Shown in pieces: positions 14,301-51,483 of a stretch of DNA of 64,000 nucleotides. The position numbers and the translations under genes were made by a program. A model generated the notes under the pieces. That model was given only the letters and a program-made list of their open reading frames with translations, did not search any database and was not told the DNA's origin. Source of the stretch: Rhynchopus sp. YZ270_cl-10 (Eukaryota); the NCBI GenBank assembly GCA_964035575.1, contig OZ037841.1, positions 1,550,001 through 1,614,000 of the forward strand, given 5' to 3'. The first letter of the stretch is position 1; each line of letters begins with the position of its first letter.

Positions 14301-14708
14301 TCCTCCCACCTATAACCTCCTCCAGGGCTTTCCTGGATGTGCCCAAAATTCTTGTCCAAACTTTAGTTTGCCTTTCCCTTTTTGGTTTTTACGTTTTGAA
14401 GAAAATAAAAATAGAAAAATAAACGTTCCTCGTGCGCACCAACAAATTGGCGAGGTGTTTGCACTCTTGGGGTCATCTTATATACTTCCCCCTTCCCCCC
14501 TTTTCTGTGTTTTAGAAACTTGGAAGATCCATGTGACCAGCCCCTCCTATTTTTTTTTTTCCAAGTTTTCTTGTTACGCCCGCAGTTATTTTTCTTTCTT
14601 TCCGCACTGTTTTGTACATTAGTACACTATTGTAACAATTGTGATGAGAGGTTGCTGAGGACACGGGGCTCAGGTCATATCTTTTTTTTCTTCTCGTTGA
14701 AGACAGGG

Positions 14709-15574
14709 CAGGGGTCCTAACGCTGTTCTCAAAAAAATTAAAAATGGTAACTTCAAGGTCACTTCTCGTTTTTTGGGGAGGGAAAAAAAAAACTTTCCCC
14801 CCTCAGAGGCGGTAGGCAACAACAAAAGTGAAGTTTAAAAAAGTGCAAATTCCTCAGACATACACTGGATCATAGGGACGGGGTACTAGATAAGATTTTT
14901 TTCGTCACGCAATTTCGGGGTCTCGCGGTTTGGTGTCACAGTTTTGCTTCTTACCACGAACAACACAACACAGATGCCAGATGTTTTTTCTCAACCCTTT
15001 CTCTGCGGGAAAGCCTCCCCTCCTCAGTGCAGCTTTGGCAGCTTTGTAGCCACTGGTGCAAGCCGTAGTGGGTGTCAGCCTTCTTATCAGTAACCTCAGT
15101 ACATTGACAAAAAGAAACGGCGGCCATAACACCCAAAAGTTCCTGGCGAAGCCACGGTACGCAACATTTCTAAAAATGTTGCCATAAAATGGCACTTTCG
15201 TCGGTAAATCCGTAAATTTTACTTCCGTGTTTTGCTAAAACAAAAGTTTTTGGCGAAGCCACGGTACGCAACATTTCAAAAAATTGCGCTAAAATTGTAC
15301 ATTGTGGCACCCGCAGCCCTGCAGACCACTGATCTTGGCAAAAATAAGAAAAATCCCGAAGCATGCTCAAATAAGATTCGCAAAGAACAAGCTCCAACGT
15401 GTTCCCGGTGTATGTTAAGTATCCGAGGTAACTTCGTGACACCGGATTTTAAAAATAAAAAAGGTCACTTTTTAGGGCACTTTTCGAAGGTCACTTCGAA
15501 GTGACCTTCGGATTTCAAAAAAATAAAAAAGGTCACTTCAGAAGTGGTAAAAGTTACCACTCTTAGGACCCCTG
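14709..15574. mobile_element. Non-autonomous hAT element
   Basis: Perfect 12-bp TIR CAGGGGTCCTAA / TTAGGACCCCTG, exact 8-bp TSD AGACAGGG (14701-14708, 15575-15582), and subterminal GGTCACTT repeats. Confidence 0.92.
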
Positions 15575-16181
15575 AGACAGGGTGACTTTGTGTCTGCGTA
15601 GTTGAGTATCCTCATGTTTAGCAGGGTGTGTCTGTGTCTTAAGAAAAGCTTCAATTTCGTTCTTCCTTTCACAAAAATTTGCCTTTTCTTGTTGTGGTAA
15701 GGTGATGTGCACGAGGGACGGGTAGCCACCCTCGATTATCCTGAACAATCTGCAGCTTCACTCTTTTTGAGTCAAATTTAGTTTTCATTTGTAGATGGAA
15801 TACTTATGCATCTTTCAACAGTTTTCTTTTGTTTTGTTTTGTTTTTTTCTTTGCGCCACGAGTTCATTCCAACCATACACCTTTTCCTTTTGTTCCCTGC
15901 TCTTTGCCCCACCACCGCCCGTTGCCCCTTAAGAGAATGTCAAAATAATAATGCATTGCTCTGAAAGAAACCTGGGGTTTTGGTTGTTTTGTCAAAAAAA
16001 AAAAAATCTATTTTACTTCTTTTGTTTCTTTCTATATCCACCGCTACCTTCAAAAAAAATTCCATACAAAACAGACCACGCCACACACTACACCTAAAAA
16101 AACAACTTCATTTTCGCCGTTTTCCTGAGATTCTTCTCAATTCTTTATTTTGTTTTGCACTTTTCCTTTTCCCCCTTAAAC

Positions 16182-16535
16182 ATGCTACGGTTCTCCGAAG
16201 CGGAGCTTGCGGATAATGTGAGTACTGCACAGGACTTGCAGGGGTTGGTGAAGCAGCTCACGAGCATGCACACTGCAATGCACGTCATCCAGGCAGAGCG
16301 GAATCGGGAGGTGTACGAGGCACGTATGCAGGCACAGCAGCTAGCGGAGCAGCTCGAGACGGCGCGTGAGGAAGCACGGCAGAACAGCGGCGGCAACACA
16401 GGAGGCCAGGCGCAGGTGCTCGCTGCCATCGACAACCACCTGCACAACATCTCTGTCGCCAGCTCCGAGGTCGCTTCCATAGCACGCTCCTTCAAGCAAG
16501 AAACCGATTTGACAAACCCGAAGCGATTGTTGTGA
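16182..16535 (+). CDS. Small coiled-coil protein, or the first exon of a larger gene
   Basis: GC-rich coding-like ORF after a pyrimidine tract, with heptad-like 'QAQQLAEQLETAREEARQ'. A possible GTGAGA donor lies at the stop, so the 3' end is uncertain. Confidence 0.6.
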   Translation: MLRFSEAELADNVSTAQDLQGLVKQLTSMHTAMHVIQAERNREVYEARMQAQQLAEQLETAREEARQNSGGNTGGQAQVLAAIDNHLHNISVASSEVASIARSFKQETDLTNPKRLL

Positions 16536-16758
16536 GAAAAGCGGGGGATGTTTTAGAGCTTGTTAGATCTTAGAGGGTGGGAGGGGGGAGGGTACTCTGA
16601 CCATTTCAATGCAGAGCAAAAAGCGTCCTACCTTTTTTTGTGCTACCAAATCAAGCTGTTCACCATTCACAACACACTCCTCTCTCAGGTGCACCCACAA
16701 CACGCATCCAAAGCAAACCCCACCCACTACGTGGTACATACACAAAGAAAGCAAAAAA

Positions 16759-18469
16759 ATGTCACACATTCTCGAGTCACCCATCCATGAGGAAGAGTAC
16801 TCCACCGATGACGACGACAGCACTTTGGACCACGACTCCAGCTCATACAGCCCTACACAGCAGGTACATGACAACATCTCTTTTTCCACCACCACCACTC
16901 ACCCCCTGTCACAGGTCAACCGCATGCGCCGCATCCTTGAACGTGACCTACGCCGTGCTGAGCGTGAATCCGCGCAACGCCGTCTTCACTACGACCAGAC
17001 CGGAGAGTCGACACTTCTTCTCGAGACTCTTGCGACACAGCAGGGTAAGCCCACCACCACGACCACAGCACACCCACTAGACGACTCGCACCACACTGCC
17101 GCAGCGCTGCAGCAGGCAGACGCAATGTTCTACGACACAACACTCTGCGATGCGGAGGCAGACGGGAACGGTCTCTACACTGCCGTGACACAGAGACCAC
17201 CGCGCGCCTCGACAGCGTCGTCACGGCAGGGAGACAGCACACCACAGAAGGAGGCGGCTGCCGCAGAGATCCTCTCAGGAGTGAACAACGCGACGCGTAC
17301 GGTGACAACACGCTGCAGTGCGGGGAGCTCTAGTGTGCACAACCTTCCGTACGTTGTGTCGCGCAAGACCGAAGTGTGTGATGTGGCGCTCTCACCGACC
17401 CCCACCTCTCTGTCCCCAGAGCGGAAGCTCGGCCAGGTCGTCGCGCATCAAGAAAAGCAGATGCGTGGTTTGGTCGCTGCACTGCAATCCGCTGCAGCAG
17501 AGATCAAAAGAGAACGCCGTTCGCGTGCAGAAGTGGAAGAAGCATTGTACCACGCCAAACGGCGACGTCCCGAAGCCACGCAAGAAGCACGACCAGAAAA
17601 GGAGAAAAAAGAGAAGAGCAACGCCGCCCTTCTCGTTGCACTACGGGTAGAAAACGAAGCACTTCGCGACGAAAACGCTTCTCTTTCAGCCATCCTTGCG
17701 GAACGCGACGCGGAAACCCCATCACGCCTTCACGAAGAACGCAACCTTCTTAGGTCCGACGTGGAAGCCATGCAGGAACAGCTGAGCGCCGGGGTCCAGG
17801 AGATTGAGGTGTGGCGGACTCGGTTCACTAACGCTGAGGAGGAAATACAGAAACTGACTGCATGCATTGTGAGCATGGAGGCAGAGGTGGAGGCGGTGAC
17901 GGCTGAAGAAGACGAAGAAGCCGAAGAGGCTGAGGAAGCGACCAACAGCAACACCGACCTTGAGGACGCACGAACCGACGCCACCTCTGAGTTCGACGAG
18001 GACGCATACCTGCGTGACAGAATGAAGCGCGCGCTTGCCCCGCGTCCAGACCCAGAGGCATTGGCGATCCTCATCAACTCAATGGTCACAGAACTCAAGA
18101 AGGAATGGCGCAAGCTGTGCGGACGTGACCTGCCTTTGAAGCGGAGTGGCGTCAACGGTGGAAAGGGTTGTGTATATGAATACAGAGAGAAGCGGCTGAA
18201 CCTGCGTATCGTAGCAGGGAAGCTGGCCTTCCGTGCAGGGGGTGGACATACGGTATGGCTGTTGGGTGAGAAGGGGATTGGGATAACTCCATAATTCTGA
18301 ATCATTTTTATGTGCCTACACCTATGAAGGGTGATAGCATTTGCACTTCGGTGATTACTAATGAGGCTCGGTACACTTTAAACAAAACAACAACAAAAAA
18401 AAAAAATAACAGGACCTGCTGACCCACATCACCCGCCAGGAAGAACACTACAGCATGCGTAATATGTAA
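16759..18469 (+). CDS. Coiled-coil protein with a C-terminal GAR (Gas2-related) microtubule-binding-like domain; exons 16759-18252, 18413-18469
   Basis: The spliced end reads 'VYEYREKRLNLRIVAGKLAFRAGGGHT|DLLTHI', resembling the GAR consensus (Y.FG....VRI....VMVRVGGGW..L..FL). Intron is GTATGG...TAACAG; the start codon is uncertain. Confidence 0.7.
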
Positions 18470-18966
18470 TAATGCACGCAGTGTGCGTTGGTTTTGTTTA
18501 TTACATAGTTCGCTAGGTCAACAACCGCAAAGCGGTTGTATTCACCATTTCTTCGCCCCTTTGTTTTGTCCATTTTCAAAACGCCATTTCCCCCTATGTG
18601 TTGATACTGTGTTTTAGCCTAGAAAAAAACCCCCCTCTCCTTCACCCATAGAAATGGATTTGAGATGGACCCACAAGTAGTATTATTAGAAACCACAAAC
18701 AAAAAAAAGATAGCTATTCCTATTTCCCGCCTACCCTCACTTCTTCTTTCCCCTCCTTTTTTTTTTTCCCCATCCCAATCTCCACAACCCCCCGCGAGTG
18801 GCCTCTATTTGGTAATCAATTTCATCCACATTTTTTTTTTGACGAGCTCTCCTACTCTAATCACCACGAATCTTTTTGCCAAAAAAATTCCCAAAAAAAA
18901 TCCCCTTTTTCTTCAGGTGGGAGAGGGGGTTTTTTTTCTCCTCCTTTTCTTCGATTGCCCACAAAG

Positions 18967-21900
18967 ATGCCGCTTCCTGTGGAAGATTGGGGTGCGTCTG
19001 CTGCCGCAGCGGCTCCTTCTTCTGCACCTACACCGGACAGAGGGAGTGCCAGCCCACCTCATGCACGACGAGGTGTGAGTGATGCTGAGAGACTAGCGAG
19101 CGTCACCCCACCGAAACCACCACCACCGTATGCTGCAGAGGCGAATCATGAACGGAGCTTTCATGGTGCGCAAGAGGACATTGCGTTGAAATATGAATCT
19201 GCTGTTTGTGAGGCAGCAGCCTTACGAAGGCAGGTACATGCACTAAAGGCACAGATGAGTCGGCCTTCGTATACTGCAGGGGAACCGCTTCCGATGGAGG
19301 CATTGGGATCACCTCAAAGAACGTCACCTCAACGGACCTTCAACTCCAGCGCAGAGGAGGCAGTGTGGAATGCGATGGACATCGACGTCATTACGAAGCT
19401 CGATGCGATTCACAAAGTCGATTGCATCAGGCAGGAGTATGAGGATACGCAGCGGGAGCTGCAGCAGGAGTTGGTTGTGAAGGAGGAGGTGCTCTCGATG
19501 TTGACCGAGCAGTTGAAAGGGATGGTGGACAGATCGCAGGTAGGTGCGTTGAGAGGGGAGCTGCAGAGGACAGTGGAGGAGTTGCAGATGGTGAGAAGGG
19601 AGAACCAATTGATTGCGTCAGAGAGGGATGAACAGGAGGAGCGGATTAAACAGATTGTGATGGAGAATTCGGAACGCAGGATTGACACAACAGCGGCAGT
19701 GCAAAGTGCGGTCGCAGAGCGGCAGGCGTCTCTCATTGATGAGATCCAAGATCTCAATGCAGAGCTCGATGAAGCCAAGCGGCAAGCCCACGCAGTCTCC
19801 CAAGCTGCAGCAGAGCTGGACGAACGTCTCCACTCTACAGAGGAAACCCTTGCAGCGACGACAGAGAATATGGTCGAAAAGGACGCCCGCATTGCACAGC
19901 TCCTCGAGGTGGAGGCAAGTCTCCTGAGGAGTGAAGGGGTGGTGCAGGATCTGGCAGATTCGTTGCAGGTATGAGAACTGAGGGGGTCAAGAGAGAGAAA
20001 TATGATCTGGTGATGGTTGTCTTGTTGAGTCTGATCGTGCTCGTATGAGCTTCATCTTGTTTTCCAGGTTGGTTCCACTGCCAAGCCTTCTGGATAACGG
20101 AATATCTTCTAAAGTTCTGATTGTTTTTTTTGTTGGGTATCCCGCAATGTACACCTACAAAGCGTACTTTTATTTGCTCTTTTAAATCCTGTGAAGAAAA
20201 ATCGTGGCTGCTATCTTGTGATGTTCCGAAGGGCACGAAGCGCCTTCTGCATCGATGCCGCGTTGCATCCGCACACGCGCTGAACACGAAAATGTGTCTT
20301 TTCCACAAGATATCAATGCACACGAGAGGATCGACTTGAGAATGCGTTGTCCCGTCACTGCCTCCTTGTACTCCTTGTTCTTGTTCTCAAGACAAAACGC
20401 GTTTGTGCCGTCACCCTCTTGATGGCGTCAGCAACCTTCGTGTCCTCATGTACGTTCGGTGGAGGCAGCCTGATTGCCCAGATCGAATCTGGAGTAGACC
20501 ACTAGCCTTGTACTACCTACTTACGAAAAATAGTATTATATTTTCAGACATTTGTTGAAAAGTGGAGAATCTACCTATTGTTTAGCTGACGCAACAGGTA
20601 CTTGGGGTAGTCCCTGTCCGAGCTTTTACAGCTGCTACTGGCAGTTGGCCCAGGGCTGTAGCCTTTCGAGCGGGCGGTGGGAGCCCCCTTCTCGTGGTGG
20701 TTGCCCTGACGACAACACTCGTCCACGTGTGCAAGCATACAGGCGTTCCCACGTACAGTCCGTCCAAGAACCGCTTCCGCGCGTTGCGTTCGCTTGCCGG
20801 CACCATCTCGGAAAGAACCGTAGTCCTCCGTTCTGCCGAGGACTTCCTCCAGCTCTGCCCAGTCTGCTTGACAAAGGTGTTCCCTCTATTACTCGCGTTG
20901 TCCAGAACTGACGAAGTTACGCCGCATCACTCATCCCCCGTCCAACATCAAGGACACGTCTTGTCCCTTCAGGTGGATGAAGACCGCTTCCTACGTCTCA
21001 CCCGCAAGCACGGTGATGCGGTTCGCCAGCTCATCCGCAAAAAAATTTTGTCCAGCAGGGCAGTCCTCGAGGCAGCTGTGTATCGCATGGCCGGCACGCA
21101 ACCACACGAAAGGCCAGCAATGATTTGCAGTAGTCTAATCAAACAACACTTTTGGGCATCCCGCAATGCCACACCCTGATTTTTGGGGTTTTTCGAGCTC
21201 CGGTACATTATGTTGAACGCTATTATAACCACCCCTTCTCCCCACACAACAGGCCCAAGCGCTCGCCCACAAGCAGGTACTTGAGGAGGCACAGTCGCGT
21301 GAGTCGCAGCTAGAAGCATTGAAGCAGCGCCACGATGTCAACGGGGAGGTCGTCGCCTCCTTGCAGCGCAAGCTGGACGACAAAGAACGCCGGCATGTGG
21401 AGACGGTGCTGCACCTTGAGTCGCGTGGCGCTGAGGTGATTGAGCTGCAGACACAGCTTGATGGGTTTACTGCACATCTTCAGAGCCACCTTCTGCAGAA
21501 AGACGAGCAAATGCGCCGCTCTCAGGAGGCTTTGGTCGAGGAGGTCAAGATGCTGAAGGTGTTCCTGTCTGAGGGCGAGGCGAGGGCGAGTGTACTGCAG
21601 TCTGCTGCGAATGGGAAGATCGAAGAAGCGCAGGGTGAGGCGCGTGCACAGGCAGCGTTGGTAGCGGACCTGGAGGCTCAGCAGCGTGGTCTTAAGGCGG
21701 ATATGCAGGAGGCTGTGCGGCAGCAGATGGGCCTCCAGGAGAGCAGCAGCGCCTCGCACGCTGTGGTGGAGCGCAAGCTTGCGAACACAGAGGCAGAGTT
21801 GGACTCACAGCAGAGGCTCACGACGCGTCTAGGGGCCGAGCTCAAAGAGCGTGACGAGCTTCTCGTGGAGCAGCAAGACACCATCACCGAAATGAGGGAG

Positions 21901-24900
21901 AAGATGGACCTCTGCGAACGCCTTGCAGTAACGCTGGAAGAGGCGCAGACGCAGAACAAAGCGTTGACAGTGGAAAACATGGAGCTGGCACAGACCGTTG
22001 CGCAGAAGGCGGAGGAATGCAACGCAGCAGAGCAGGTACGTCCTAGCGTTTATTTCACCTTTTAGTCAACCTCTACAAATTTGATAACAAATATTACTCC
22101 CACAGGCGACGACTGTACTGCGTGCACAGAATAACGACACAGTGGAGGAGTTGACTGCCCGTCTGGAGGGCCTGCAGGAGGTGAAGCGGCAGCTGCAGCT
22201 GCAAGTAAGCCAGGAGGCTGCACGGGCGGAGACGATGCTGATGGAGAAGAAGAAGTGCGAAGGCACGATTGCCGTCCTGCAGCAAACGCAGGCGCTGCAG
22301 CGGAAGCACCTCAGCGAGAATACAAGCCAGGCGCAGTCCGAGCTGCAGACCACGAAGGAGTCGCTTGGCTGGTTCTCGAAGAACCTCGACACCGTCAGCG
22401 AGCAGCTGCACGACCGTGACAGCACCATCGAGGCCTTCCGCCAGGCATGCGAAGCAAAGGACGCAGACATCGCGAAGCTTAAAACACTCCTACAAAAGTC
22501 CTCGGAAACGCTCGATCTTCTTCAGGTATGACCTCGGGGGTTTTGGTGATTCCTGAAGTGGAAACTTGAAAAACTACAAATAACACCAGGAATGCGCCGA
22601 ACGCTCTGGCGGCGAGCAGAAGCAGCAGCTCGAGACTGCGCGGCAGGAGTGCGCTGCCCTGGAGGACCAGCGCTCCTGTGCGTCCTCTGCTGTGTCTGCT
22701 GCAGAGGAGGAGGCGGAGGGGCTGAGGGCACAGCTGAGAGACGTTCGCGATATTGCGGAAGAGGAAAAGGCTGCACATGAGGCAGAGGTATGCACTGCCA
22801 CCTCGCTTCCTTCAGTACTCAACCTGATTGCACACAAACCATGCTCCAAAGATGTCAAACACTCACCACACCCCACCCCACAGGTCGCCCACCTCAAGGA
22901 AGAGCTTGAAGCCCTGCAGATGCGCCTCACGGATGTTGAGGAGAGTGAGCGGCAGTCGCAGCGCTCTGGTGACGACGCCGAGCGTACCCTGCACACACGC
23001 CTGGCTGAGGAGGCAGAGGAGCACGCCGTGCAGCGCCGCATGCTCACGACACGCATCCAAGAGCTCGAGGCTGGTGCCGACGCGCTGCAGGGGGCAGAGC
23101 GACGTGCAGAGCAGCTGCAGGCACAGTGCGACAGCAGTGCCTCCGAGATCACACAGAACCAACACCTTGCTGTCTTCCTGCAAGAAAACGCAGGCAGGGC
23201 AGCACTGCAGCAAGACGGACTGCACTGGTTCAGCCTCCACACCCTACGTCAGGTGCGCGAATTTGAACGCATCGCCGTCAATGCACGCGAACAGAAGCAG
23301 ACACAACAGTTGCTACACATGCAAGAGACGCAGGCGAAGCTTAAACAGATCGATGATGAAGACAAGGCACTTACTGCGGCACGTGAAGCAGAGTTGCATG
23401 AGTTGGTGTCAACATTGCGCAGTCGCAGCAGTGAGGCGGAAACAAGCAACCGCACTGCCCGCCAACTCATCGAACACATGACGGACGAACTGCAGCAACG
23501 TGACACCCTTCTCCGCAGCAGAGAGCAAGAGGCACGCCAGGCAAAGGAAAGCGCTGTCGAGGCAAAACGGGTTCTCGAACAAGAACGTCGCACCACGAGC
23601 ATGCAGGCACAAGACCGCGATCTCGAAGTTGCCGAGCGCGACTCTCTTATCGCACGCCTCCAAGGGGCGAGGGCGGAGCTTGAAGCAGCGGGGGCAGGGA
23701 AGGAAACATTGCTTCTGGAGTTGAGCAATAAGATGGACGAAAAGAGTGCGGATATGAAGGACCTGCATGCGGCTTTGGAGGAGACCGTTGCGCAGGTGAA
23801 GGTGCTGAGGGGGCAGCTGAACGAGCGGGAGGAAGAGGCGTTGTCAGCTAGACAGAAGTATTTGCAGCTGGAGAGTGAGCATGCGGGTGCTGTGTGCGAG
23901 GCACGTCGGACGCAGGAGGAGAGCGATGCCAAGCTGTGCACGTTGGAGGAGGAGCTCGCTGCACGGGTGCGCCACCTCGAGGTGTGCAACGAACGACTGG
24001 ATGCAGCGTCACGCCAGCTGCACAAGGCAGAGGAGGACGCAGCCACCCTACGCTGCAGTCTGACAGCATGCAAAGGTGAGCTCAGTGCGGCGCAGCTGGC
24101 CACGCAGACAAGCGAGGCAGACGCAGCGCGTCTGCAGCTGCAGCTTGACACAGTGCGCAGGGCAGTCGACGAGAAGGCACATCGGCTCACCGATAAGCAA
24201 AATGAGGTATGAAATGGTTTTTGACCTGTGGTTTGTAGCGTCTCTAGCGTCTGTGCTTAGTTTTTATCTTTTGCCTTTGTGTCTGTCGCAGCCTCATTCC
24301 TGATACCACAAACATCATCAGATTAACCGCCTGCGCGCTGAGAAGGAGGATGCACAGCACCGTTCTTCGTCAGCCCTGTCGCAGCTGCAGTCGACGGATA
24401 TCCACCACATCCAGAGTCAGAATGAGCTTGTGACGCAGCTTGAGCTTGCACGGCACTGTGCGGAGGTTGCGGTGACTGGCCGTGATGCTGTGGCAGCTGA
24501 GCTGCGTGAGGCACAGGAGACACACGCACATGCTCTATCGTATGCAGAGCAACGTGCGGCACAGCTGCAGGAGCAACTCGCCGTCTTGACAGCACAGAGC
24601 ACTTCAACCTCACGTGCGCACGAGGCTGCCCTGCTCGCAGCAGAGACACAGAACCGCGACCGCGTCGCAATCATGCAGTGCGACATCGACGCAAAGACAC
24701 AGGCACTCAAGCACATGCAAGCGAGCCTCGATGCGTTGCAGGTATCCCACCTCACACGACCCCCCTTATCACATTATCACCCCCACTCCACTCACCTCAG
24801 ACTGCCGCGTCCCGCACGGACCCCTCTGCCCATGCTGAACGTGCCCTTGCTGAGGTCAGCTCTGAGGTACAACGCCTCTCCCTCGAACTTGCTGCCAAGG

Positions 24901-29619: not shown

Positions 29620-32439
29620 ATGGGATTGCTTCATACTAAGGAGCGAGAGTATTCAAATTGCAAGGAGAAGGACCGGCAGGTGTTGTTGGCGTCATGGCAG
29701 GGTATCCAGAGGACAATGCAGTTGGATGAGTTTGTGGGGAATGTGTTTTCGGATATGATGCGGAAGGACGAGGAGTCACGACATATCCTGGGACAGAGCA
29801 AGCTGTCGCAGCGAAAACGCATGGTGACAAGCATTGTGGAATGGGCGGCGAACCCACCAAGCTCGGACCTCATCCTCGTTGCCGCAAGGCAGCACGCCCA
29901 CCTTGGTGTCCGTGAACGCCATATCACCCTCCTCTGCGAGACCATCGCCACCATCGCCATCAGCGCCACCCCACCGAAGGAAGACGTCGACCTCACCGGA
30001 GCATGGAAGCGCTGCCTCCAAAAACTCTGTTCCCACTTCATCCCAACGTGCGAAGAAACATCTGAAGCGCTACGCCAAGCTCGCGACACCTCGACAGCAA
30101 TGTCCAGCAATGATTCCGCAAAAAAGGCGCGGGCAATAAAACTGCTGACCGCAACACAACCACAACCAGGGTACGCAGGGACACTCAAAATGAGTCAATA
30201 CTCCTGCATGAAGCAGAGACCACCAAGTCACGACAGCGACCACGCTAGTGCATACTTCAGAGACAGATGGGTGGAGCTGCACTCTCAGTTTGTGTATTAC
30301 TTCAAAAAGCACGGCGACGAGAAGGCGATTGGTCTCATCGACCTAGCGCTGTGCCAGCTGGTGGACACAGACTCGCCGCAGTCGACGTTGCCTTCACCTC
30401 CTGAGAAGTACACCTTCGCACTGCTCACACAGGCGCATGCTTACCCTTACTACTTCATTGCAGAGGACGAAAGCTCCAAAGAGCATTGGTTCACAACGGT
30501 ATGTCAAGAATTGAGCTCAAAATTGATACGCAAGGAGAATACGTGGAAAGCTTGTTGAACGTACCCCATGCAATGATGTGGGGTTTAGAGAGGTAAAAAG
30601 GAATAGAGAGGGGGAGGTAGCGCAATCATGACGACACCACAACACCAACAGTTCCGGAAGGCGTGCAATAGGTTTTCGTTGATTCGTTCGGATCTGAATG
30701 AGGGAGACAGGGTGAAGGTGTGGTGCCGAGCCACAAGTGACTTTGAGGTATTTCATCTCCCCCCCCTCCCAGCCGATGAATGTCGCTGTGTTTTATATTA
30801 ATTCACAGTGTCTACATATCCGATCTACGGTGAGGCGTTTGCGCTTTTCAATGTCTCTTTATTTACTCAAAACCCCAAAAACGAAATGAAAGGCTACTTC
30901 AACAGTTCTAGATTTCTTTTTTTTTTTTTTTTGTTGAGAAATATTGATTGACCAAAACTACTACATTTTTTCCCCTCAAACAGACCGGAGTAGTCAAATG
31001 GGTCGGCCAGATTGCTGTGCCACCGAAGTCAGCCTCTGTCGCACAGTACAAGGTATCCCTCTCCTCCCTCCCTCCCTCCCTCCCTCCCTCCCTCACCCTT
31101 CACCCAACCCCCATCACACAACCCACCTCAGGATGGCCTATGGGTAGGCATTGAATTCAAAGAGTCGATAGGGATCTGCGATGGCGCAATGCATGGACAC
31201 AGATATTTCACCTGCGATGCCCGCCACGGACTGCTCGTCCCTGCACACGAGGTCAAGACCTTGGGGCTGCTTGAAATACACATTGAGGGTGAGGAGCTTG
31301 CACCTACTACGTACCGTCCTGACGACTTCGACTTTTTGACAGTTCTTGGGAAGGGCTCCTTTGGGCGGGTCTGCAAAGTGCGTGACAAGAAGATCGGCAC
31401 GCTCTACGCCTGCAAAGTACTACAAAAGGCTGCCCTCGTCAAGGAATCGCAAATCCGCAATGTCTCCCGCGAGAAGTCGCTCCTCCTCAACATCCGCCAC
31501 CCTTACATCGTCAAGCTTCATGCGGCATTCCAAACGAGGGGACGCCTTTTCCTTCTCTTTGACTTTCTTTCCGGCGGCGAATTGTTTTTGCACATGACAA
31601 AATGCCCAAAAGGCCATTTCTCTGAGGTGCGCGCACAGTTCTATATTGCAGAGGTTTCCCTCGCAATACAGCACCTCCATTCAAACAATATTGTACACCG
31701 AGATTTGAAGGCAGAAAACCTCGTCTTGGATGCAGAAGGGCACGTTGTTTTGACCGATTTTGGCTTCGCAAAGACTATCGAAGAAAACGAGGCAAACACA
31801 ACAAAATGCGGTACCCTTCCTTATATGTCTCCAGAAATGCTCCGGCAAGGCCCCAACGGGTATGGCATGGAGGTAGATTGGTGGGCCCTCGGGGTCCTCC
31901 TATTTCTTATGCTTACGGGTTGTTATCCATTCTGGGCGGAGGAGACGATGCGGACAGTACAACAGATCCTCGAGCGGGAGATCACCCCAGAGTGTTTCCC
32001 ATCAAGCCCGTCGTCTCTTGAAGCGAAGCAGTTTGTGAGCAAACTGTTGCACAAAGACCCGACACAGCGGCTGGGGAGAGAGGGCTTTGTGGCGGACGTA
32101 TGGTTTAAAGGGTTCAACTGGGTGAAATGCCTTGCCAGGGAGCTGGCAGTACCGTTTGTCCCCGAGGCGTCTGCGGGGGCGAAGTACTTTGATGCAAGCC
32201 GGTGTTCCATTATGTGCAGCGAGGCGGGCGCTAACGCATTGGACGCTTCAAAGCACCCTGCACAAAAGGTAGAGGCATTTACCTCCTTCTACGACGTCCA
32301 CCTGGACTACAAAAACTGCGACGAAACCATCCTGGACGACACAAGAGAAAACATGCTCTTCATCAACGCACTCAACAACGAAAAGGAAGACCGTGACGAC
32401 TCGACACCTGCCCTAGAACGGTATTTGATCGACACCTAA
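29620..32439 (+). CDS. Globin-PH-CAP-Gly-AGC Ser/Thr kinase fusion (~783 aa); exons 29620-30498, 30652-30747, 30984-31052, 31132-32439
   Basis: Three phase-0 GT-AG introns give one frame. Globin: 'VLLASW', 'ARQHAHLGV', 'GAW'. PH: 'RWVELHSQFVYYFK', 'GLIDL', 'FIAEDESSKEHW'. CAP-Gly: 'GDRVKV..GVVKWVG..WVGIEF..GICDG..RYFTC..GLLV'. Kinase: GKGSFG, YACK, HRDLKAEN, DFG, CGTLPYMSPE, VDWWALG. Confidence 0.88.
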
Positions 32440-34167
32440 ATGGGGGGTGATTGGGGAGGGGGGGATTGGGGAGATTCTCAAGATACGGTGTTTTTTTTTC
32501 AATTTTTTCAAGGTGGCCAAGTAGGTTCATCTTACCAATTTTTTTTCAATTTTTTTTGGATGTAGAGGTGTGGACCAGGCACATCTCATTTTTTTTCAAA
32601 ATTTTAATGTAAACTATCAAAAATGGAGCACTGCGTTGATGGTTGCAGTGTACTAAGGTACACTGTCACGAGAGGGCTTGGTATTTCAACATTTTTCAAT
32701 TTCTATTATGGTGACTAAGCGGCGAGGGGCTTAGGTTCATTTTATAAACCTTTCTTTTTGTTTTCCTATGACACAAAGCTTGTTGGGGTGGAATATGGGG
32801 GGGGGGGGGACATCCAGTAAAAAAAAGAAGAAAAACATCTGGCTTTCTGGTGTATTTGTTTTCCCCCCTATTTACACTGGGTGGCATATTATAGGAACAG
32901 TATGCCCAGGAACGTTCACACCTGTATTGGGGGGTCTGTTTAGGTGATGGGGATTAGATTTAAAATTGGGATGGGATTCCTCCTCTGCATTTCTGTACAA
33001 ATGAACACTAGGAAAAAAAAAATCATTGTTTTTTTTTTGTTTTTTTTATGAAATTAGTTTGTATTTGTTTTTTGATGACTCAGCACGTCAGGCTTTCTTT
33101 GCTCATCTTGTCTATCTTTTATTGCCTATTTCGTCAGGATGTGCGTGCTCTGAGAGGTACCTTCATCTTCACGTTGTGTTTTTTCTTTGTTTCTTTGTTT
33201 CTTTTATTAGTCCGTTGTACCCATTGCCTGGACCGCCCTTATGCTTCCCCCCGGGCAGTTGTCCTCTCCTTGGTTGTTTCTCACGCGCCTTTTGTTTTTT
33301 CTTTCTTTTCTTTTACTGCCCTCGCCCTGCGTCCACCCGGTGTTCGGAGGCATTTGCACCTTCAAATTTCTCTTTTTTTTTTTGGTACACAGACAGTCAC
33401 TTTGTGTTTCAAATCTTTTCCTATTTTGAGCGTTTTTTCTTCTAAGAGATGGGTGTACTGTACTCAGCACGACACCTTTCATCTCTCAAGTATTCTTAAG
33501 TGTTAGGTGACGAAAAGTATGAGGGATCATCTGACAATCGTTTTTTCTTTACATTTTTACCACCAGTGGTGTTCCGGAAACACCTGTCAAGGACCTCCGG
33601 AACATCAACCAGGTTTGCAAAATATCAATTTCAGACAAACATGTGATGTGCACATTATCTGTGTACATTATTTATGCTTAGGTGAGAGGCTTAGGTCCAT
33701 CTTACCCAGCCTTTTTTCTCTCGATTTTTCCATTTTTTTTTGTCGAAAATGGATAGCCGCTTTATGGCGGCAACTCTCTGGAAATGACAACAACACAACG
33801 TGGCATTGCACTGCTTGTCTTGTAGTAGTGAGAAAGTGTTTTCCGGTCCGTACGGCAACGCTTCAAAGAACGTTGCACCAAAACACTTAAAAAGCGGTTT
33901 GTATAGTTATAGAATGTGTGCACATTGCTGTGAAGCACATCGTTGTGCTGCGTTTTTCTTTTCCCCTCATGTTCGTTGTTTTGTAGCAACACCACTTTGC
34001 CTCTCACTTCACACCCCTGGGGATAATGAATTCGGGGAAAACAAACAAACAAACAAACAAACAAAAATTATTTTAAATGGGACGACTTTTTTGATAAAAC
34101 AACTTGTTGTCAATTCTAAAAAGATTGGAGGCAGCGCTGCGGGCAAACAAAACGGATTGAAAAAGAG

Positions 34168-35066: not shown

Positions 35067-35945
35067 AAGAGAGAAAAAAAAAAAAAAAAAAAAAAAAAGG
35101 TAACAACGTAACAAGGCTCGACTGCCACATAGTGGGGGGAGATCTGTGCAGCCTGTATGTTCCCCCCGATTTTCGTGGTAAATGGGGAGGCGCTTCCGTT
35201 TAACGGCAACCCACAAGAGTAGAACAACAACCAAACTTTTGAGAAACAGACGCCAATGAGACCTAGAGTCTCTCTTCTTACTTGTGTGCTACAGACAAAC
35301 ATGACAACGCTAACCACGACTGCCACGGCAGAGCGGGGTCCCTAACGGTTCACTGGGGGGGATCCACATAGATAAAGAAAACAAAAAAAACGAAAGCAAG
35401 GAAGAAAACCAGTAAAAAAAAAAAAAAAAAAAAAAAAACAGAAGCTTGCTTGTTTTCTTTGAGTACTCAATTAACCACAACAACCGTACTTCAGTTTAAC
35501 ACATTTTTTCACCTTTTTGTTTTTCCGGCTTTGAGCGCACAAACAAAAGACCCGATCTTTTTTTGGCTTTTTTTTTTCCACAACGCAATTCTTAGATTTT
35601 GCGGGATTTTTTTTTAGAGAAAAAAAGCGGCGGGTGTCTGCTCCCCATCCCCACCCCTCTTCGTCTGCCTCTACTTATGTATTTCAGAGAAGAAAAAAAG
35701 CAAACTCGGTGTATACATAATGATTAATCCAACCATGGGATGTGTCCATTTCTCGAATTCTTTTTTTTTTTGTCTCAGGGTACCGAAACTTTTTTTTTTG
35801 GTAAGCGTCACCGCCCGCACTTTTTTTTGGATTTTGCGAAAAAAAAATTATGAAGAAAAAAAAAATTATGCAGGTGTTTTTTCTACTGGGGGGGGGAAGC
35901 TGGTGTCGGTGACGATTCACCTGCAAGGGAAACGCTTCGAGAACG

Positions 35946-36360
35946 TGTACTGTACTGTACTGTACTGTACTGTACTGTACTGTACTGTACTGTACTGTAC
36001 TGTACTGTACTGTACTGTACTGTACTGTACTGTACTGTACTGTACTGTACTGTACTGTACTGTACTGTACTGTACTGTACTGTACTGTACTGTACTGTAC
36101 TGTACTGTACTGTACTGTACTGTACTGTACTGTACTGTACTGTACTGTACTGTACTGTACTGTACTGTACTGTACTGTACTGTACTGTACTGTACTGTAC
36201 TGTACTGTACTGTACTGTACTGTACTGTACTGTACTGTACTGTACTGTACTGTACTGTACTGTACTGTACTGTACTGTACTGTACTGTACTGTACTGTAC
36301 TGTACTGTACTGTACTGTATACTGTACTGTATACTGTACTGTTTACTGTACTGTTACTGT
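35946..36360. repeat. (TGTAC)n microsatellite
   Basis: Long perfect pentamer array that degenerates at the 3' end. Confidence 0.98.
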
Positions 36361-36413
36361 GTTTTGACCATCTGGGGGTACCAAATACACGTTTTTGTAT
36401 AACCCCTCCCCAA

Positions 36414-36568
36414 GTGTACAGTGTGTACAGTGTGTACAGTGTGTACAGTGTGTACAGTGTGTACAGTGTGTACAGTGTGTACAGTGTGTACAGTGTGTAC
36501 AGTGTGTACAGTGTGTACAGTGTGTACAGTGTGTACAGTGTGTACAGTGTACAGTGTATTGTACAGTG
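36414..36568. repeat. (GTGTACAGT)n 9-mer tandem array
   Basis: Direct tandem repeat visible in the sequence. Confidence 0.97.
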
Positions 36569-37891: not shown

Positions 37892-38984
37892 ATATAAACT
37901 AAGGGTCACATTAGGGTGCTGAATGCATCTCTTGGGGTTTAAAAAAAAAACTAAAAGAAAATGGATGTGTTGACCACAACACAACATCATCGGCAAAATT
38001 AGCCGAGCACAAATCAGAGTTTCCCATTTTTTCCCCCCCTATTTCTCAATCTCTCTGGCTCTGAAAGGATGAATAAAGGTACGACGGCTTGTATGTGTTC
38101 CCATTATTTTTCGGGGTGAGGACTTAGGTTCATCTTACCAAATTTTCTTTTTTTTGTCTGTTTTGGGTCTTATTATTTGACTACGAGCTGCTATCCCGTG
38201 ATAGTACTCTATTGTCAAACAATTTTTTTTTGGGTTTTAGCAGACCCATGAATCAGCTGTATTTTTGATGCGTCAGAAGGAAAATGTAGCTTGAACGTAC
38301 ACGGAGGCTACTCGAGCCTTCTGTGCAAAGTAGTTACGTCCACGCGCAGTCCTTCGCAGAATCTGTTTTATTTTTGTTTTTTCTTTTGACAATTTGTTAT
38401 GCTTTTGTTTTTTTTTTGAACTCATGTTCTTCGAAATGCGGGGTGTCCTTCCTTTACTGCGCTTAATTCTTGGTGAGTTGCAGAAAAAAAAAAATTGTGC
38501 CGAGGGGGTGACTGTGTGGGGAAGGGCACTTCACCATTTTTTTAATTCACAAATTTAAAAAAACGTCTAGCAGACTGCACAAACCTGGGTGGCGGGGGGA
38601 TGGTATTTATCTACAACAAAACAGACAATGGTATACAACACTACCCACACAAAACAAAACAAAAAAACAAAGGGAGGAAAAGTTCTTCTTTCAATTTAAA
38701 AAAAAAACAGAAAACATCACTCATGATTTCCGCTCTTTCCCACCACAACATCCCCTCGATCCCCTCCCCGATGAGAAGCGGGAATAGGCATGATATCAAC
38801 CTCAAAATGGATGTAGGACTGCATGGTTGGATGCACCGGTCGTACACTGCTCACGAGAGGGCTTTGTGTTTCAAATTTAAATCAAATTTATGGTAACACA
38901 GGCTTTCTCAACGTATATTATAATAAACTCTTTTTTTGTTTTTCTTCGAACACAACACCCAAAACAGGTGGGTGTGGGCACAAT

Positions 38985-42027: not shown

Positions 42028-42719
42028 GCTGGGTTGGTGGGATGGAAAAGTGGGTGTTCGGGTGGTGGCCATAAAACAGGGCATTTCTGTAAAGCTCGTG
42101 GAATATGGGTTTTAAAAGGTGAGTGTTGTAAGTGTTGCAAGGTGACTAAGCTGCGAGGCTTGGGTTCATTTAATTCCCCTCTGTCAGTCTGTTTGTCTCG
42201 CCGCCTTCGTCTTTTTTTTGTGCTTTCCAGCCACGAAAAATAATGAAGAATATTTTGCTCCCTCACCCCCGCCTTCCGTGTTTTCTTTATTACCTTCAGA
42301 CCTTTTTGATTCAAAGTTTTCTTTCGCTTTCTTTCCTTAGTTTTTTCAGTTTTCCGTCGAAATTCAAAACAACGATTTTTTTTTTTTTTGCATTTTTCCC
42401 CTTATGGCGAGCAGACATGGCACGGTCTCGATGTCATCATCCCTGAGAGAATTCTTGAGGGCGTGAGACAGAGTCACACGGGAACGATCGTTTTAACCGC
42501 GCGCAGAAAGATCCTCATATTTTTTCACTTTCCTGGAGTGTCCATTGCTGCAAGAAAACTCATCCAACGACTGCGAAACCTGTTGCCGCAGGATTTCCAC
42601 CTCATACCATACCTCCCCAGCTTTCCTACTGCACCATTGTCAGGTATATTTAAACCTTTTGTTTTTGCAACTTCACCTACACACCCGCACCGCCAACGAT
42701 CCGTACAAAAGCCGCAACG

Positions 42720-44654
42720 ATGCGCACTCTATCGGTGTTCACTACAGTGGTGGTGGCGATGCTTGCTCAGCTCGCCCATGCAGAGGATGTGCACACAGAG
42801 GAGCACGTGGGGAATGAAACATCGCACACAGGCGAACATGAGTCGCACTCAGCAGAGCACTCGGGTGAACACTCCGCGGAAGCAAACGAAACGCATTCGC
42901 TGGGCCACACAGAGGAGCACACTGGTGAACACACTGGCGAGCACACGTCACACACTGGCGAACACACTGGTGAGCACACGTCACACACGGGCGAACACAC
43001 TGGTGAGCACACCGGAGAGCACACATCACACACTGGTGAGCACACATCACACTCAGGAGAACACGCGTCGCACGGACACTCTGATGAGCACGAAGAGACG
43101 TTTGCAGGCTTCAACGCAACGTCTGTGGAGGAGCTGCAGGAGAAGTACGATGCGAACAAGGACCACGAGCTGAACAGAACAGAGGCGTTTGTGCTGTGGC
43201 GCGACGTGCTCGGGCAGGACCTGCTCGAGAGCCAGCTTGCGTGTGTGGAGGACGTGCTGAGCCACACACACGAGGCTGGACACGTGCGCACACTTGGGAG
43301 TGCGGAGATGCACTTCCTGCTTGTGAACGCGGCGCTGGTGAAGGCGTACCAGATGTGCGAGCACAGCTACACGTCTGCAGTGGAGAAGCTGATGGAGATG
43401 GCGGGCGGCAGTGCAGCGGGTCTGGAGGTGTCGGATGTGAAGGCGCTGTACAGGCTGATCATGAGCTCTGCCGCGGCTGGTGTTGCGCTTGAGGACGACC
43501 ACTCGGACCACGCACACGGGCGTGCGGCAGACGTGCTTGCAGAGGATGCACACGAGCACGAACATGAGTGCCAGGGCTACAGCAACATTGTGTCGACTGT
43601 GGGGGACAAGGACACGCTGTCTGCGGCAGAGGTGACGGCAGTGGTGGAGGCTGTGTTGTTGGACAAGGTGCACGCATGTGTCTCGGACACAGACGAGTGC
43701 ACAGGTCCGTCACGCAGCGAGAGGTACGGGTACACTGTGCTGGCTGTGTCGCTTCTGACGTTCCTGTCGATTGTGCTTGTGATTGTGGCAGTGCCGCTGC
43801 TGATGGCACACCCGATTGTGCTGCAGGTGATGTTGTCGTTCGCGATTGGTGCACTTCTAGGTGATGCATTTTTCCACATTGTGCCGATCCTGATGGGAGT
43901 GCACGGGGGCTTCTCAGAGGGCCTGAGTGACGCGGACATCAACGGGAGACTTGCAGTGGCCCTGGCGACGGTGCTTGTGTTCTACTGGGTGGACGCTGTG
44001 AGCAGGATTGTGCTGGGCGGCGAGTCTGTGCACGAGCACGCGCACGAGCACATGCACGAGCAGGACGCTGAGAGGGCTGTGACCGGAACGGAGCCTGCGA
44101 ACTTGGAGGAGGAGTCGCAGAGTGTTGAGGTGACGCCAAAGGAAAAGCCGGGCTGGTTCAGCTGGACACCGATGGCACAGGTGGGCCGTATTGCGTGGGT
44201 GGTGGTGATTGCGGACGGCTGCCACAACATCACGGACGGGCTGTCGATCGGTGCGTCGTTCTCTCGCAGCAAGTCGCTTGGTCTGTCGACGTCGCTTGCG
44301 GTGTGCTTCCACGAGATTCCACAGGAGGTGGCGGACTTTGCGATCCTGCTGAGCTCTGGGATGTCGCCTCTGCAGGCAGTGATTCTGAACGGGCTGTCTG
44401 GTGCGACAAGCATCGTTGCAGGCATCGTTGCGTGCATCATCGGCGACTCTTCGAAGGATGCGGAGCCGTGGATGCTGGCGGTGACGCTGGGCTCGTTTGT
44501 GTACCTTGCACTGGGTGTGGTGCTGCCGGAGGTGCTTGAGGCAGAGAAAGGACAGCACTCTGTCCTGAACATGGTCATGTGCTCGTTGGGGATGGTTGCA
44601 GGGGCAACTGTCCTCTGGATCATTGCCATCACAGAGGACCACGGCAGCTGCTAG
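42720..44654 (+). CDS. ZIP (SLC39, LIV-1-like) zinc/metal transporter with a signal peptide and His-rich ectodomain
   Basis: 'SFAIGALLGDAFFHIVP', 'DGCHNITDG', 'CFHEIPQEVADF', 'GSFVYLAL'; about 8 TM helices; His-rich TM3-4 loop. Confidence 0.95.
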   Translation: MRTLSVFTTVVVAMLAQLAHAEDVHTEEHVGNETSHTGEHESHSAEHSGEHSAEANETHSLGHTEEHTGEHTGEHTSHTGEHTGEHTSHTGEHTGEHTGEHTSHTGEHTSHSGEHASHGHSDEHEETFAGFNATSVEELQEKYDANKDHELNRTEAFVLWRDVLGQDLLESQLACVEDVLSHTHEAGHVRTLGSAEMHFLLVNAALVKAYQMCEHSYTSAVEKLMEMAGGSAAGLEVSDVKALYRLIMSSAAAGVALEDDHSDHAHGRAADVLAEDAHEHEHECQGYSNIVSTVGDKDTLSAAEVTAVVEAVLLDKVHACVSDTDECTGPSRSERYGYTVLAVSLLTFLSIVLVIVAVPLLMAHPIVLQVMLSFAIGALLGDAFFHIVPILMGVHGGFSEGLSDADINGRLAVALATVLVFYWVDAVSRIVLGGESVHEHAHEHMHEQDAERAVTGTEPANLEEESQSVEVTPKEKPGWFSWTPMAQVGRIAWVVVIADGCHNITDGLSIGASFSRSKSLGLSTSLAVCFHEIPQEVADFAILLSSGMSPLQAVILNGLSGATSIVAGIVACIIGDSSKDAEPWMLAVTLGSFVYLALGVVLPEVLEAEKGQHSVLNMVMCSLGMVAGATVLWIIAITEDHGSC

Positions 44655-51054: not shown

Positions 51055-51483
51055 GAAGAGGGTGTTCGGAGGGAACATGGCAAAACTCTGGCCAGAGTGA
51101 GAGGAGGTGGAAAAAACCTCATGGGTTTTTGGGTTCGTGTGGTAATAAAAGGTCCCTTTTGGGTTCCTCGATTAGTGCAAAGGAAAGAATCTCTGCCCGA
51201 GTGAAGATGTGCCACAATTCTGGCCAAAACAAGAACAAAAAAAGATGACATTTTAATTTTGAGGCCCATTTTTTTCCGTTGATGGCGTATTCATTCATTG
51301 TAGAGTGGTGACACATTTGCTTTCCAATGTCTGATACAGACAGTCTTGTTATGACGCATCGTTAGTCCCTTCAGCTCGTTTGAGTGCACCGTGCTGTGGT
51401 CTCTATCGGCACAGCTTGGATGAACAGAGTGCGAGGAGCGTCCCCATTCATCACAACACCACACCACACAGAGAGACACAACA

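What the first reader, a model, noticed from the sequence alone, without database searches (positions are those of the whole stretch)
29620..32439. Globin-PH-CAP-Gly-AGC kinase: candidate haem/gas-sensing Akt-like kinase at membranes and microtubules
Seen: the ORF track splits this gene, but two small exons (30652-30747, 30984-31052) link the parts in frame and complete both the PH C-terminal helix and the CAP-Gly domain, which supports the splice model. The N-terminus is MGLLHT (myristoylation consensus MGxxxS/T). Residues ~15-140 follow the 3/3 globin pattern: A-helix SW, probable proximal F8 His in ARQHAHLGV, H-helix AW. The usual CD1 Phe appears to be Leu. The kinase catalytic motifs are intact, with an activation-loop Thr and an FxxF tail (FTSFY) lacking the usual Ser/Thr. 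The CAP-Gly GKNDG loop reads GICDG. Established: globin-coupled sensors regulate bacterial cyclases and His kinases; PH-AGC is the Akt layout; CAP-Gly binds tubulin/EB tails. Inference: O2/NO or redox state may control a Ser/Thr kinase at the membrane-microtubule interface. I know of no described protein with this architecture.
Basis: partly seen in the sequence, partly recalled or inferred. Interest (0 to 1): 0.9.

Follow-up and report, generated by a model that had tools for sequence, protein, structure and literature searches.

The report
Haemoglobin-domain Akt-class kinase family in flagellates
This spliced gene, likely from a diplonemid flagellate, joins a haemoglobin-type domain to an Akt/SGK-class protein kinase, and relatives with the same fusion occur in other diplonemids and free-living kinetoplastids, so these cells likely let oxygen, nitric oxide or redox state control protein phosphorylation directly.

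Summary
The gene is real: four in-frame exons give a 783-residue protein. Transcript-derived orthologues from four diplonemids match it, the closest without a gap at any of the three junctions.

Pfam misses the N-terminal domain, but it is a 3/3 globin of the flavohaemoglobin (F) type. The model has pLDDT 92 and Z 16.0 to E. coli flavohaemoglobin, and the family profile gives E 5e-17 to the HGbRL sensor globin.

Eighteen other proteins join this globin to the same kinase, in diplonemids and two free-living prokinetoplastids. Globin-PH-kinase is the shared core; CAP-Gly marks one clade. The proximal His is kept in 20 of 20, and most members keep TyrB10/PheCD1/GlnE7. This copy has Phe/Leu/Arg there, so its haem chemistry may differ.

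GKNDG is missing in all 12 CAP-Gly rows, and the kinase is AGC-class without being specifically Akt.

Best reading: a myristoylated globin-coupled Ser/Thr kinase. Haem binding and kinase control are inferred, not tested. Ten literature searches found no description. D. papillatum has two copies, so the idea is directly testable.

The parts
29620..30498 (+). Exon 1 (residues 1-293): myristoylation signal, globin, linker and most of the PH domain
   Evidence: Pfam PH; orthologues
29620..29640 (+). Predicted N-myristoylation signal (Met-Gly, Thr at 6, Lys at 7)
   Evidence: Met-Gly start in 15 of 19 family members vs 4 of 37 other hits, Fisher p 6e-7; modification itself not tested
29662..30069 (+). 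F-family 3/3 globin domain (residues about 15-150); B10 Phe43, C5 Arg54, CD1 Leu57, E7 Arg65, E10 Met68, E17 Trp75
   Evidence: model pLDDT 92.2; Foldseek and VIA-align; profile to HGbRL E 5e-17; positions
29893..29895 (+). His92 codon, proximal F8 haem ligand position
   Evidence: His in 20 of 20 family members; aligns to the proximal His of HGbI and HGbRL
30070..30168 (+). Extended H helix and conserved helical linker into the PH domain (residues 151-183)
   Evidence: 23-24 of 33 identical to Rhynchopus orthologues; helices in models
30169..30672 (+). PH domain (residues about 184-300), split by intron 1
   Evidence: Pfam PH; C-terminal helix spans the junction in the orthologue's model
30499..30651 (+). 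Intron 1, 153 nt, GT..AG
   Evidence: a relative's gene call reads through at the same position
30652..30747 (+). Exon 2 (residues 294-325): end of PH, start of CAP-Gly
30748..30983 (+). Intron 2, 236 nt, GT..AG, with a short high-copy repeat at 30820-30864
30984..31052 (+). Exon 3 (residues 326-348): middle of CAP-Gly
31053..31131 (+). Intron 3, 79 nt, GT..AG, with a CCCT-type run
   Evidence: same position retained in a relative's gene call
31132..32439 (+). Exon 4 (residues 349-783 and stop): end of CAP-Gly, kinase, AGC tail
30694..31263 (+). CAP-Gly domain (residues about 308-392, over exons 2-4) lacking the GKNDG Lys and Asn
   Evidence: Pfam CAP_GLY; motif absent in 12 of 12 rows
31327..32106 (+). 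AGC-class Ser/Thr kinase domain (residues about 414-673), catalytic Lys443, Glu462, Asp539, DFG intact
32278..32289 (+). Hydrophobic-motif-like FxxF without the following Ser/Thr
32422..32436 (+). Conserved C-terminal pentapeptide (aromatic ... Asp-Thr end), found only in CAP-Gly-bearing members
   Evidence: 10 of 12 CAP-Gly rows end in [DNA][TA], 0 of 8 rows without CAP-Gly

Best explanation
The gene encodes a globin-PH-CAP-Gly-AGC kinase that is likely anchored to a membrane by a predicted N-myristoyl group, and whose globin likely binds haem and likely switches the kinase according to oxygen, nitric oxide or redox state. Shown: the four-domain protein, the globin fold of the model, the invariant proximal His and intact catalytic residues. 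Also shown: a family in diplonemids and prokinetoplastids whose constant core is globin-linker-PH-kinase. Inferred steps: (1) His92 (F8) holds haem. (2) In most of the family TyrB10/GlnE7 stabilise a bound gas as in bacterial F globins. In this copy and its Rhynchopus orthologues E7 is Arg and CD1 is Leu, so affinity or ligand choice is likely shifted. (3) The family keeps ArgC5 and TrpE17, which relay the ligand-driven CE-loop and E-helix movement in HGbRL. It has Met where HGbRL has its haem-ligating LysE10, so Met68 may be a displaceable sixth ligand. (4) The movement would pass along the long H helix and the conserved linker to the PH-kinase unit. This would replace the PDK1/mTORC2-type phosphorylation input, whose signatures are poorly kept. 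(5) The CAP-Gly is a later addition that more likely binds the protein's own conserved C-terminal end, or another partner, than tubulin tails.
For: Fold: model pLDDT 92.2. All rows shown by Foldseek are globin-fold entries, the top single-domain ones with TM about 0.7; Z 16.0, rmsd 2.6 over 139 residues to E. coli flavohaemoglobin. A profile of 8 family globins gives HGbRL E 5e-17, HGbI 1e-12, Vitreoscilla Hb 1e-10. Family: 18 other proteins carry this globin plus the kinase. Pfam Globin passes its cut-off in 7 of the 18. His F8 is the only invariant globin column; TyrB10 15 of 19, PheCD1 15 of 19, GlnE7 13 of 19, MetE10 16 of 20, Arg/Lys C5 18 of 19, TrpE17 14 of 20. The fusion occurs in Diplonemea and Kinetoplastea, and the family globins group apart from other globins (weak support). 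Met-Gly start 15 of 19 vs 4 of 37. Activation-loop Thr in 9 of 18; Ser after FxxF in 1 of 18. HGbRL mechanism: PMC4476040, Results read. D. papillatum shortens and rounds up in hypoxia (PMC8611851 passages).
Against: No haem binding, gas binding or kinase regulation was measured. This copy departs from the family consensus at B10 (Phe), CD1 (Leu), E7 (Arg) and F4 (Ala), and its globin gets no Pfam hit at all. The profile aligns with a gap of 4-5 residues in the EF/F region against HGbI and HGbRL. The globin is the fastest-changing domain, 30-45% identity against 73-81% for the kinase. Foldseek E-values stay at or above 1e-3. Non-haem globin-fold sensors exist (PMC7475203 passages). In the more distant members the globin-to-PH spacing varies from 81 to 239 residues, which argues against one rigid helical relay throughout the family.
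Confidence: 0.55

Rival explanations
1. The family is a haem sensor kinase, but in this copy and its Rhynchopus orthologues the globin has lost gas sensing. It would serve as a dimerisation or autoinhibitory domain, or as a loose haem-availability sensor.
For: CD1 Leu, E7 Arg and F4 Ala in the window and Rhynchopus rows, and B10 Phe in the window alone. No Pfam Globin hit for this copy. A Cys at H23 in the 8 closest rows is absent from most others.
Against: His F8, the helix A and H Trp residues, MetE10 and TrpE17 are all kept. 29 of 35 Mb-fold positions are hydrophobic, though that count used a first E-helix register later shifted by one. The model keeps every helix.
Confidence: 0.2
2. The globin binds haem but works as a membrane-anchored redox enzyme (NO dioxygenase or superoxide/peroxide source or sink) that acts on the kinase or its substrates chemically, not allosterically.
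For: Nearest solved relatives include NO-dioxygenating F globins. N-acylated globin X is reported to have a membrane ROS-protection role (PMC7475203 passages). The kinase subclade has conserved Cys residues.
Against: No reductase domain is fused. The residues matching the flavohaemoglobin proximal TyrG5 and GluH23 (roles recalled) are replaced throughout. The best profile match is a sensor-type globin.
Confidence: 0.13
3. One reading: an Akt-like kinase recruited by phosphoinositides through PH and by tubulin/EB C-terminal tails through CAP-Gly, acting on microtubules.
For: PH and CAP-Gly pass Pfam cut-offs. The second-strand Arg216 of the PH is kept in 20 of 21 rows. Cell shape changes in hypoxia.
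Against: GKNDG is absent in 12 of 12 rows, and the CAP-Gly net charge is about zero. CAP-Gly is missing in 8 of 18 kinase-bearing relatives. The first-strand Lys of the lipid-binding PH signature (recalled from Akt) is Met or Val in most rows.
Confidence: 0.1
4. The fusion is an artefact: a globin-PH gene and a kinase gene lie side by side and are transcribed or trans-spliced separately.
For: No RNA of this organism was available. No run contig spans the whole locus; they break at the repeat in intron 3. Exon 4 lies in a long open frame of its own.
Against: Single transcript-derived proteins from R. euleeides, R. humris, D. ambulator, S. specki and A. motanka hold all four domains in the same order. 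The junctions align without gaps to the closest one.
Confidence: 0.02

Closest known systems
HGbRL of Methylacidiphilum infernorum (PDB 3wfw/3wfx; PMC4476040, Results read)
   Same: Best solved match to the family globin profile (E 5e-17). F-type globin at the N-terminus of a putative sensor; shares TyrB10, ArgC5, PheCD1, GlnE7, TrpE17 and HisF8 with the family consensus.
   Different: Bacterial, with a Roadblock/LC7 output. Its haem-ligating LysE10 is Met in this family. There is no myristoyl signal, PH or kinase. Its site-swapped dimer was not tested here.
Oxygen-sensing adenylate cyclases of trypanosomatids (HemAC-Lm / OAC; PMC7719234 passages; the original paper was not held)
   Same: Euglenozoan protein with an N-terminal globin controlling a signalling enzyme on the same chain.
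   Different: The output is an adenylate cyclase, not a kinase. No globin-cyclase appeared among the 57 profile hits, and no direct sequence comparison was made.
Bacterial globin-coupled sensors (HemAT, diguanylate cyclases, histidine kinases; PMC7475203 and PMC3287990 passages)
   Same: N-terminal globin, helical linker, C-terminal output domain.
   Different: These use S-family globins and prokaryotic outputs. This globin scores with the F family, and the output is a eukaryotic AGC Ser/Thr kinase.
Akt/PKB, SGK and RSK/S6K (AGC kinases)
   Same: The kinase domain matches SGK1 (E 8e-67), RSK4 (1e-64) and Akt2 (3e-64). PH lies before the kinase, and the YFD and FxxF tail elements are present. 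[quoted passage not shown]
   Different: Globin and CAP-Gly additions. The activation loop reads T-K-C-G-T instead of T-F-C-G-T and varies across the family. The hydrophobic motif has no phospho-Ser/Thr, and the PH signature is incomplete.
Androglobin and N-acylated globin X (PMC7475203 passages)
   Same: Eukaryotic chimeric globin (androglobin); membrane anchoring of a globin through Gly2 (globin X).
   Different: Neither carries a protein kinase; androglobin's globin is permuted and joined to a calpain domain (recalled).

Membership tests
3/3 globin (Mb fold) | 3-on-3 helical sandwich | tested here: met
   Model pLDDT 92.2 with helices A, B, C, E, F, G, H; Z 16.0, rmsd 2.6 over 139 residues; predicted model only
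3/3 globin (Mb fold) | Invariant proximal His at F8 (criterion in PMC3287990) | tested here: met
   His92; 20 of 20 family members; aligned to HGbI and HGbRL
3/3 globin (Mb fold) | Phe at CD1 | tested here: not met
   Leu57 in this copy; Phe in 15 of 19 family members
3/3 globin (Mb fold) | Binds haem and a gaseous ligand | not testable with these tools
   Needs spectroscopy
F-family (flavohaemoglobin-like) globin | Closer to FHb/single-domain F globins than to S or T globins | tested here: met
   Top ten PDB profile hits are HGbRL, HGbI, VHb, FHb and NOD; where Pfam hits the family globin it is mostly PF00042, with weaker Bac_globin hits in a few
F-family (flavohaemoglobin-like) globin | TyrB10/GlnE7 distal pair | tested here: not met
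   This copy has Phe43/Arg65; the family has Tyr 15 of 19 and Gln 13 of 19
Globin-coupled sensor (S family, strict sense) | S-family (protoglobin-like) globin | tested here: not met
   Protoglobin reached E 0.26 in 1 of 18 kinase-bearing members, Globin passed cut-off in 7
Globin-coupled sensor (S family, strict sense) | N-terminal globin fused to a C-terminal signalling output | tested here: met
Globin-coupled sensor (S family, strict sense) | Ligand state of the haem controls the output activity | not testable with these tools
   Needs kinase assays
AGC kinases | Catalytic Lys, alphaC Glu, HRD and DFG intact; AGC-type domain and C-tail | tested here: met
   Lys443 and Glu462 19 of 19; Asp539 19 of 19; all 60 PDB rows shown are AGC kinases
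Akt/PKB subfamily | Kinase domain nearer to Akt than to SGK/RSK | tested here: inconclusive
   SGK1 228.7, RSK4 221.8, Akt2 220.3 bits; no tree with reference kinases was built
Akt/PKB subfamily | PDK1 site T-F-C-G-T and phospho-acceptor hydrophobic motif | tested here: not met
   T-K-C-G-T, Thr in 9 of 18; FxxF followed by Tyr
Akt/PKB subfamily | PH with complete basic 3-phosphoinositide signature (recalled) | tested here: inconclusive
   Arg214 and Arg216 present, first-strand Lys position is Met191; lipid binding not testable
Tubulin/EB-tail-binding CAP-Gly | GKNDG motif with Lys and Asn beside a basic groove (PMC9062740) | tested here: not met
   Absent in 12 of 12 rows; domain net charge 0 in this copy

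The most novel reading that the evidence does not exclude
Diplonemids and free-living kinetoplastids have an ancient family of membrane-anchored AGC kinases switched directly by a haem globin. A Met at E10 serves as a displaceable sixth haem ligand, and gas binding replaces the PDK1/mTORC2 phosphorylation input. This would be a one-protein oxygen or NO receptor for Ser/Thr phosphorylation in a eukaryote. A diplonemid clade added a CAP-Gly clamp on its own C-terminus, and the Rhynchopus-like lineage retuned the pocket to a different ligand.
Probability: 0.35. Interest if true: 0.9.

Novelty: new variant of a known kind. Interest (0 to 1): 0.76.

Why it matters
Globin-coupled sensors with measured activity, in the reviews whose passages I read, drive chemotaxis receptors, cyclases or histidine kinases; the one listed in a protist is a cyclase. 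A globin wired to an AGC Ser/Thr kinase would be a direct route from a gas to eukaryotic phosphorylation signalling. Diplonemids are described as highly abundant marine flagellates that change shape and slow division in hypoxia (PMC8611851). The passages I searched there name no sensor. D. papillatum is genetically tractable and has at least two members, one with all four domains above Pfam cut-offs, annotated only as RAC kinases. This makes the question of how these cells sense oxygen testable by tagging, knockout and biochemistry.

Tried and rejected
Single-sequence tests miss the globin. Pfam gave no hit, and phmmer against PDB gave one chance hit. The Atlas feature search gave Globin clusters at 0.84-0.86, a lead only; a second Atlas query did not complete.

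No whole genome is held. No RNA holder was listed. The laid contigs retain the introns and show no splice joints. The JGI metagenome scan had 237 pattern matches, none confirmed.

The full-length fold of the R. euleeides orthologue from a 4-sequence alignment failed for the CAP-Gly and kinase half (mean pLDDT 47, pTM 0.40) and says nothing on domain packing. The complex predictor was not available, so globin-kinase contact was not modelled. The wide structural search was busy; the second-look search was used instead.

My first E-helix register (E7 = Gln64, E11 = Met68) was rejected once the wider family and the HGbI/HGbRL alignments placed the conserved Gln at position 65. The idea of an invariant H23 Cys, 7 of 7 in the first set, fell to 8 of 20 in the wider family.

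Literature: ten searches listed no paper on this family. The D. papillatum genome paper has no 'globin' in its main text, and its supplements mention only a truncated globin. One orthogroup there, OG0009724 'RAC family kinase homolog', has three D. papillatum, one Euglena gracilis and one Rhabdomonas copy. I could not link it to this family. Subscription journals and bioRxiv supplements were not searched. Look-ups of earlier findings by sequence or by diplonemid terms found nothing.
Full report
Observation. The finding's coordinates hold a four-exon gene on the + strand: 29620-30498, 30652-30747, 30984-31052 and 31132-32439. All junctions are phase 0 with GT..AG ends, and the joined frame is 783 residues without a stop. 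Pfam finds PH, CAP-Gly and a kinase on the exons, but no globin. Contigs of four public runs from two studies show no base differences; they retain the introns and none spans the whole locus. No RNA holder was listed, so splicing in this organism itself is not shown.

Splice model. A search with the first 175 residues found one 777-residue protein, a Rhynchopus euleeides transcript product. It aligns end to end with no gap at any of the three junctions. A search with its PH-CAP-Gly region added transcript proteins from R. humris, Diplonema ambulator (5' truncated) and Sulcionema specki; the fifth hit, an ankyrin/CAP-Gly protein, was dropped. Two genomic gene calls from relatives break at the positions of introns 1 and 3. 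The window is therefore very likely from a diplonemid near Rhynchopus (kinase tree). This is inference from homology.

The N-terminal domain is a globin. An alignment of five sequences folded with mean pLDDT 92.2 into seven helices. All rows Foldseek showed are globin-fold entries, with probability 1.00 but E-values of 1e-3 or worse. VIA-align gave Z 16.0 and rmsd 2.6 over 139 residues to E. coli flavohaemoglobin. The five-sequence profile hit globin entries in 10 of 15 PDB rows, best E 0.002. An eight-sequence profile from the wider family hit HGbRL at E 5e-17, HGbI at 1e-12 and Vitreoscilla haemoglobin at 1e-10. This places the domain in the F family, not the S family of classical globin-coupled sensors.

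A family. HMMER over 1.84 billion representatives returned 57 proteins. Pfam scans of all 57 showed 14 further proteins with a kinase domain, 6 with CAP-Gly and 8 without. Of the rest, two are exon-1-only gene calls (this window's and a relative's), one is a probable fragment of a family member, and most others are single- or multi-globin proteins. With the four orthologues this makes 18 other globin-kinase proteins; Pfam Globin passes its cut-off in 7 of the 18. I could look up 10 of the 14. They are Artemidia motanka, two Diplonema papillatum proteins (KAJ9454051.1 and KAJ9450106.1, annotated as RAC family kinases), a second S. specki protein, Namystynia karyoxenos, the prokinetoplastids Apiculatamorpha spiralis and Papus ankaliazontas, and three unnamed records. 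In the kinase tree (18 rows; two partial rows and one near-duplicate left out) all CAP-Gly members form one branch with 98/97 support. In the members without CAP-Gly the PH lies about 50 residues before the kinase. The tree is midpoint-rooted only. Because both prokinetoplastid members and one D. papillatum paralogue lack CAP-Gly, globin-PH-kinase is the likely ancestral form. Whether euglenids, bodonids or trypanosomatids have it was not settled.

Haem pocket. His at F8 is kept in 20 of 20 members and is the only invariant globin column. TyrB10 (15 of 19), PheCD1 (15 of 19) and GlnE7 (13 of 19) form the usual bacterial F-globin distal site. This copy has Phe43, Leu57, Arg65 and Ala88 at B10, CD1, E7 and F4, among the most altered sets in the family; the Rhynchopus orthologues share the last three. 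The HGbRL paper (PMC4476040; abstract and Results read) describes LysE10 as a weak sixth ligand, and ArgC5 and TrpE17 as parts of the switch that moves loop CE and helix E. The family has Arg or Lys at C5 in 18 of 19, Trp at E17 in 14 of 20 and Met at E10 in 16 of 20. That Met can ligate haem iron is recalled knowledge; its role here is a hypothesis.

Other domains. A Met-Gly start occurs in 15 of 19 members with an intact N-terminus, against 4 of 37 other Met-initiated hits (p 6e-7; kinship inflates this). The kinase keeps all catalytic residues and matches SGK1, RSK and Akt2 about equally. The activation-loop Thr is present in 9 of 18, and the FxxF tail is followed by Ser in 1 of 18. The CAP-Gly lacks GKNDG in 12 of 12 rows, and passages of PMC9062740 say its Lys and Asn serve EEY/F binding and microtubule tracking. 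Ten of 12 CAP-Gly rows end in a conserved C-terminal dipeptide pattern, usually after an aromatic residue, against 0 of 8 rows without CAP-Gly. The pattern was chosen after seeing the sequences, and the members are one clade, so self-binding of the tail is only a lead.

Mechanism. The best reading (0.55) is a myristoylated, globin-coupled AGC kinase. Haem ligand or redox state would move the CE loop and helix E and pass along the long H helix and linker to the PH-kinase unit. The architecture and residue patterns are shown; haem binding, membrane anchoring and switching are inferred. Against it: the altered pocket of this copy, the faster change of the globin (30-45% identity against 73-81% for the kinase) and variable linker length in distant members. 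Rivals are a degenerate or haem-availability globin in this lineage (0.2), a redox-enzyme role (0.13), the Akt-plus-microtubule model (0.1) and separate genes (0.02). D. papillatum rounds up and shortens in hypoxia (PMC8611851, passages and a supplement term search), which gives a phenotype to test but no link to this gene.

Comparison and novelty. The principle is known: bacterial globin-coupled sensors (PMC7475203 and PMC3287990, passages), HGbRL, and the globin-adenylate cyclases of trypanosomatids (PMC7719234, passages; PMC11259077, table passage). Ten searches of the open library listed no paper on a globin fused to a eukaryotic AGC kinase. The D. papillatum genome paper (PMC10161547, passages and supplement term searches) does not describe it. 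Subscription reviews of protist globins were out of reach and could mention it. Earlier scan notes report myxobacterial kinase-globin and foraminiferal globin-RGS fusions; these are unchecked and different proteins, but they suggest that globin-output fusions recur. Verdict: real, a new variant of the globin-coupled sensor kind, interest 0.76.

Noticed in passing
window 30820-30864 and 32646-32696: Short high-copy repeats, one inside intron 2 and one downstream of the gene. Summed contig depth is 4,000-23,000 and 196,000-670,000 in those bins, against about 90-490 over the exons. A partial second copy of the downstream one lies at 38842-38874.
   Followed up: partly
window about 35900-36560: Long simple-sequence arrays (5-mer and longer units) that give spurious long ORFs on both strands.
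   Followed up: no
window 554-3229 (+): 891-codon frame that by eye looks like a receptor-type nucleotide cyclase with membrane segments; not scanned.
   Followed up: no
window 51424-52641 and 59587-60738 (+): Two frames that by eye have a ubiquitin-like N-terminus followed by leucine-rich repeats; not scanned.
   Followed up: no
window 42654-44654 (+), 4245-6095 (+), 61100-63154 (+): By eye: a His-rich ZIP-type metal transporter, an M1 aminopeptidase and an amidase; not scanned.
   Followed up: no
proteins P0020, P0032: Unnamed proteins with two or three globin domains joined to a PKD/ion-channel domain: possible globin-gated channels.
   Followed up: no
proteins P0010, P0011, P0024, P0039, P0053, P0056: Unnamed proteins with up to nine globin domains, several with cytochrome b5 domains.
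   Followed up: no
proteins P0030, P0041, P0051: CheW plus three globins, dCache plus globin, and two globins plus PAS.
   Followed up: no
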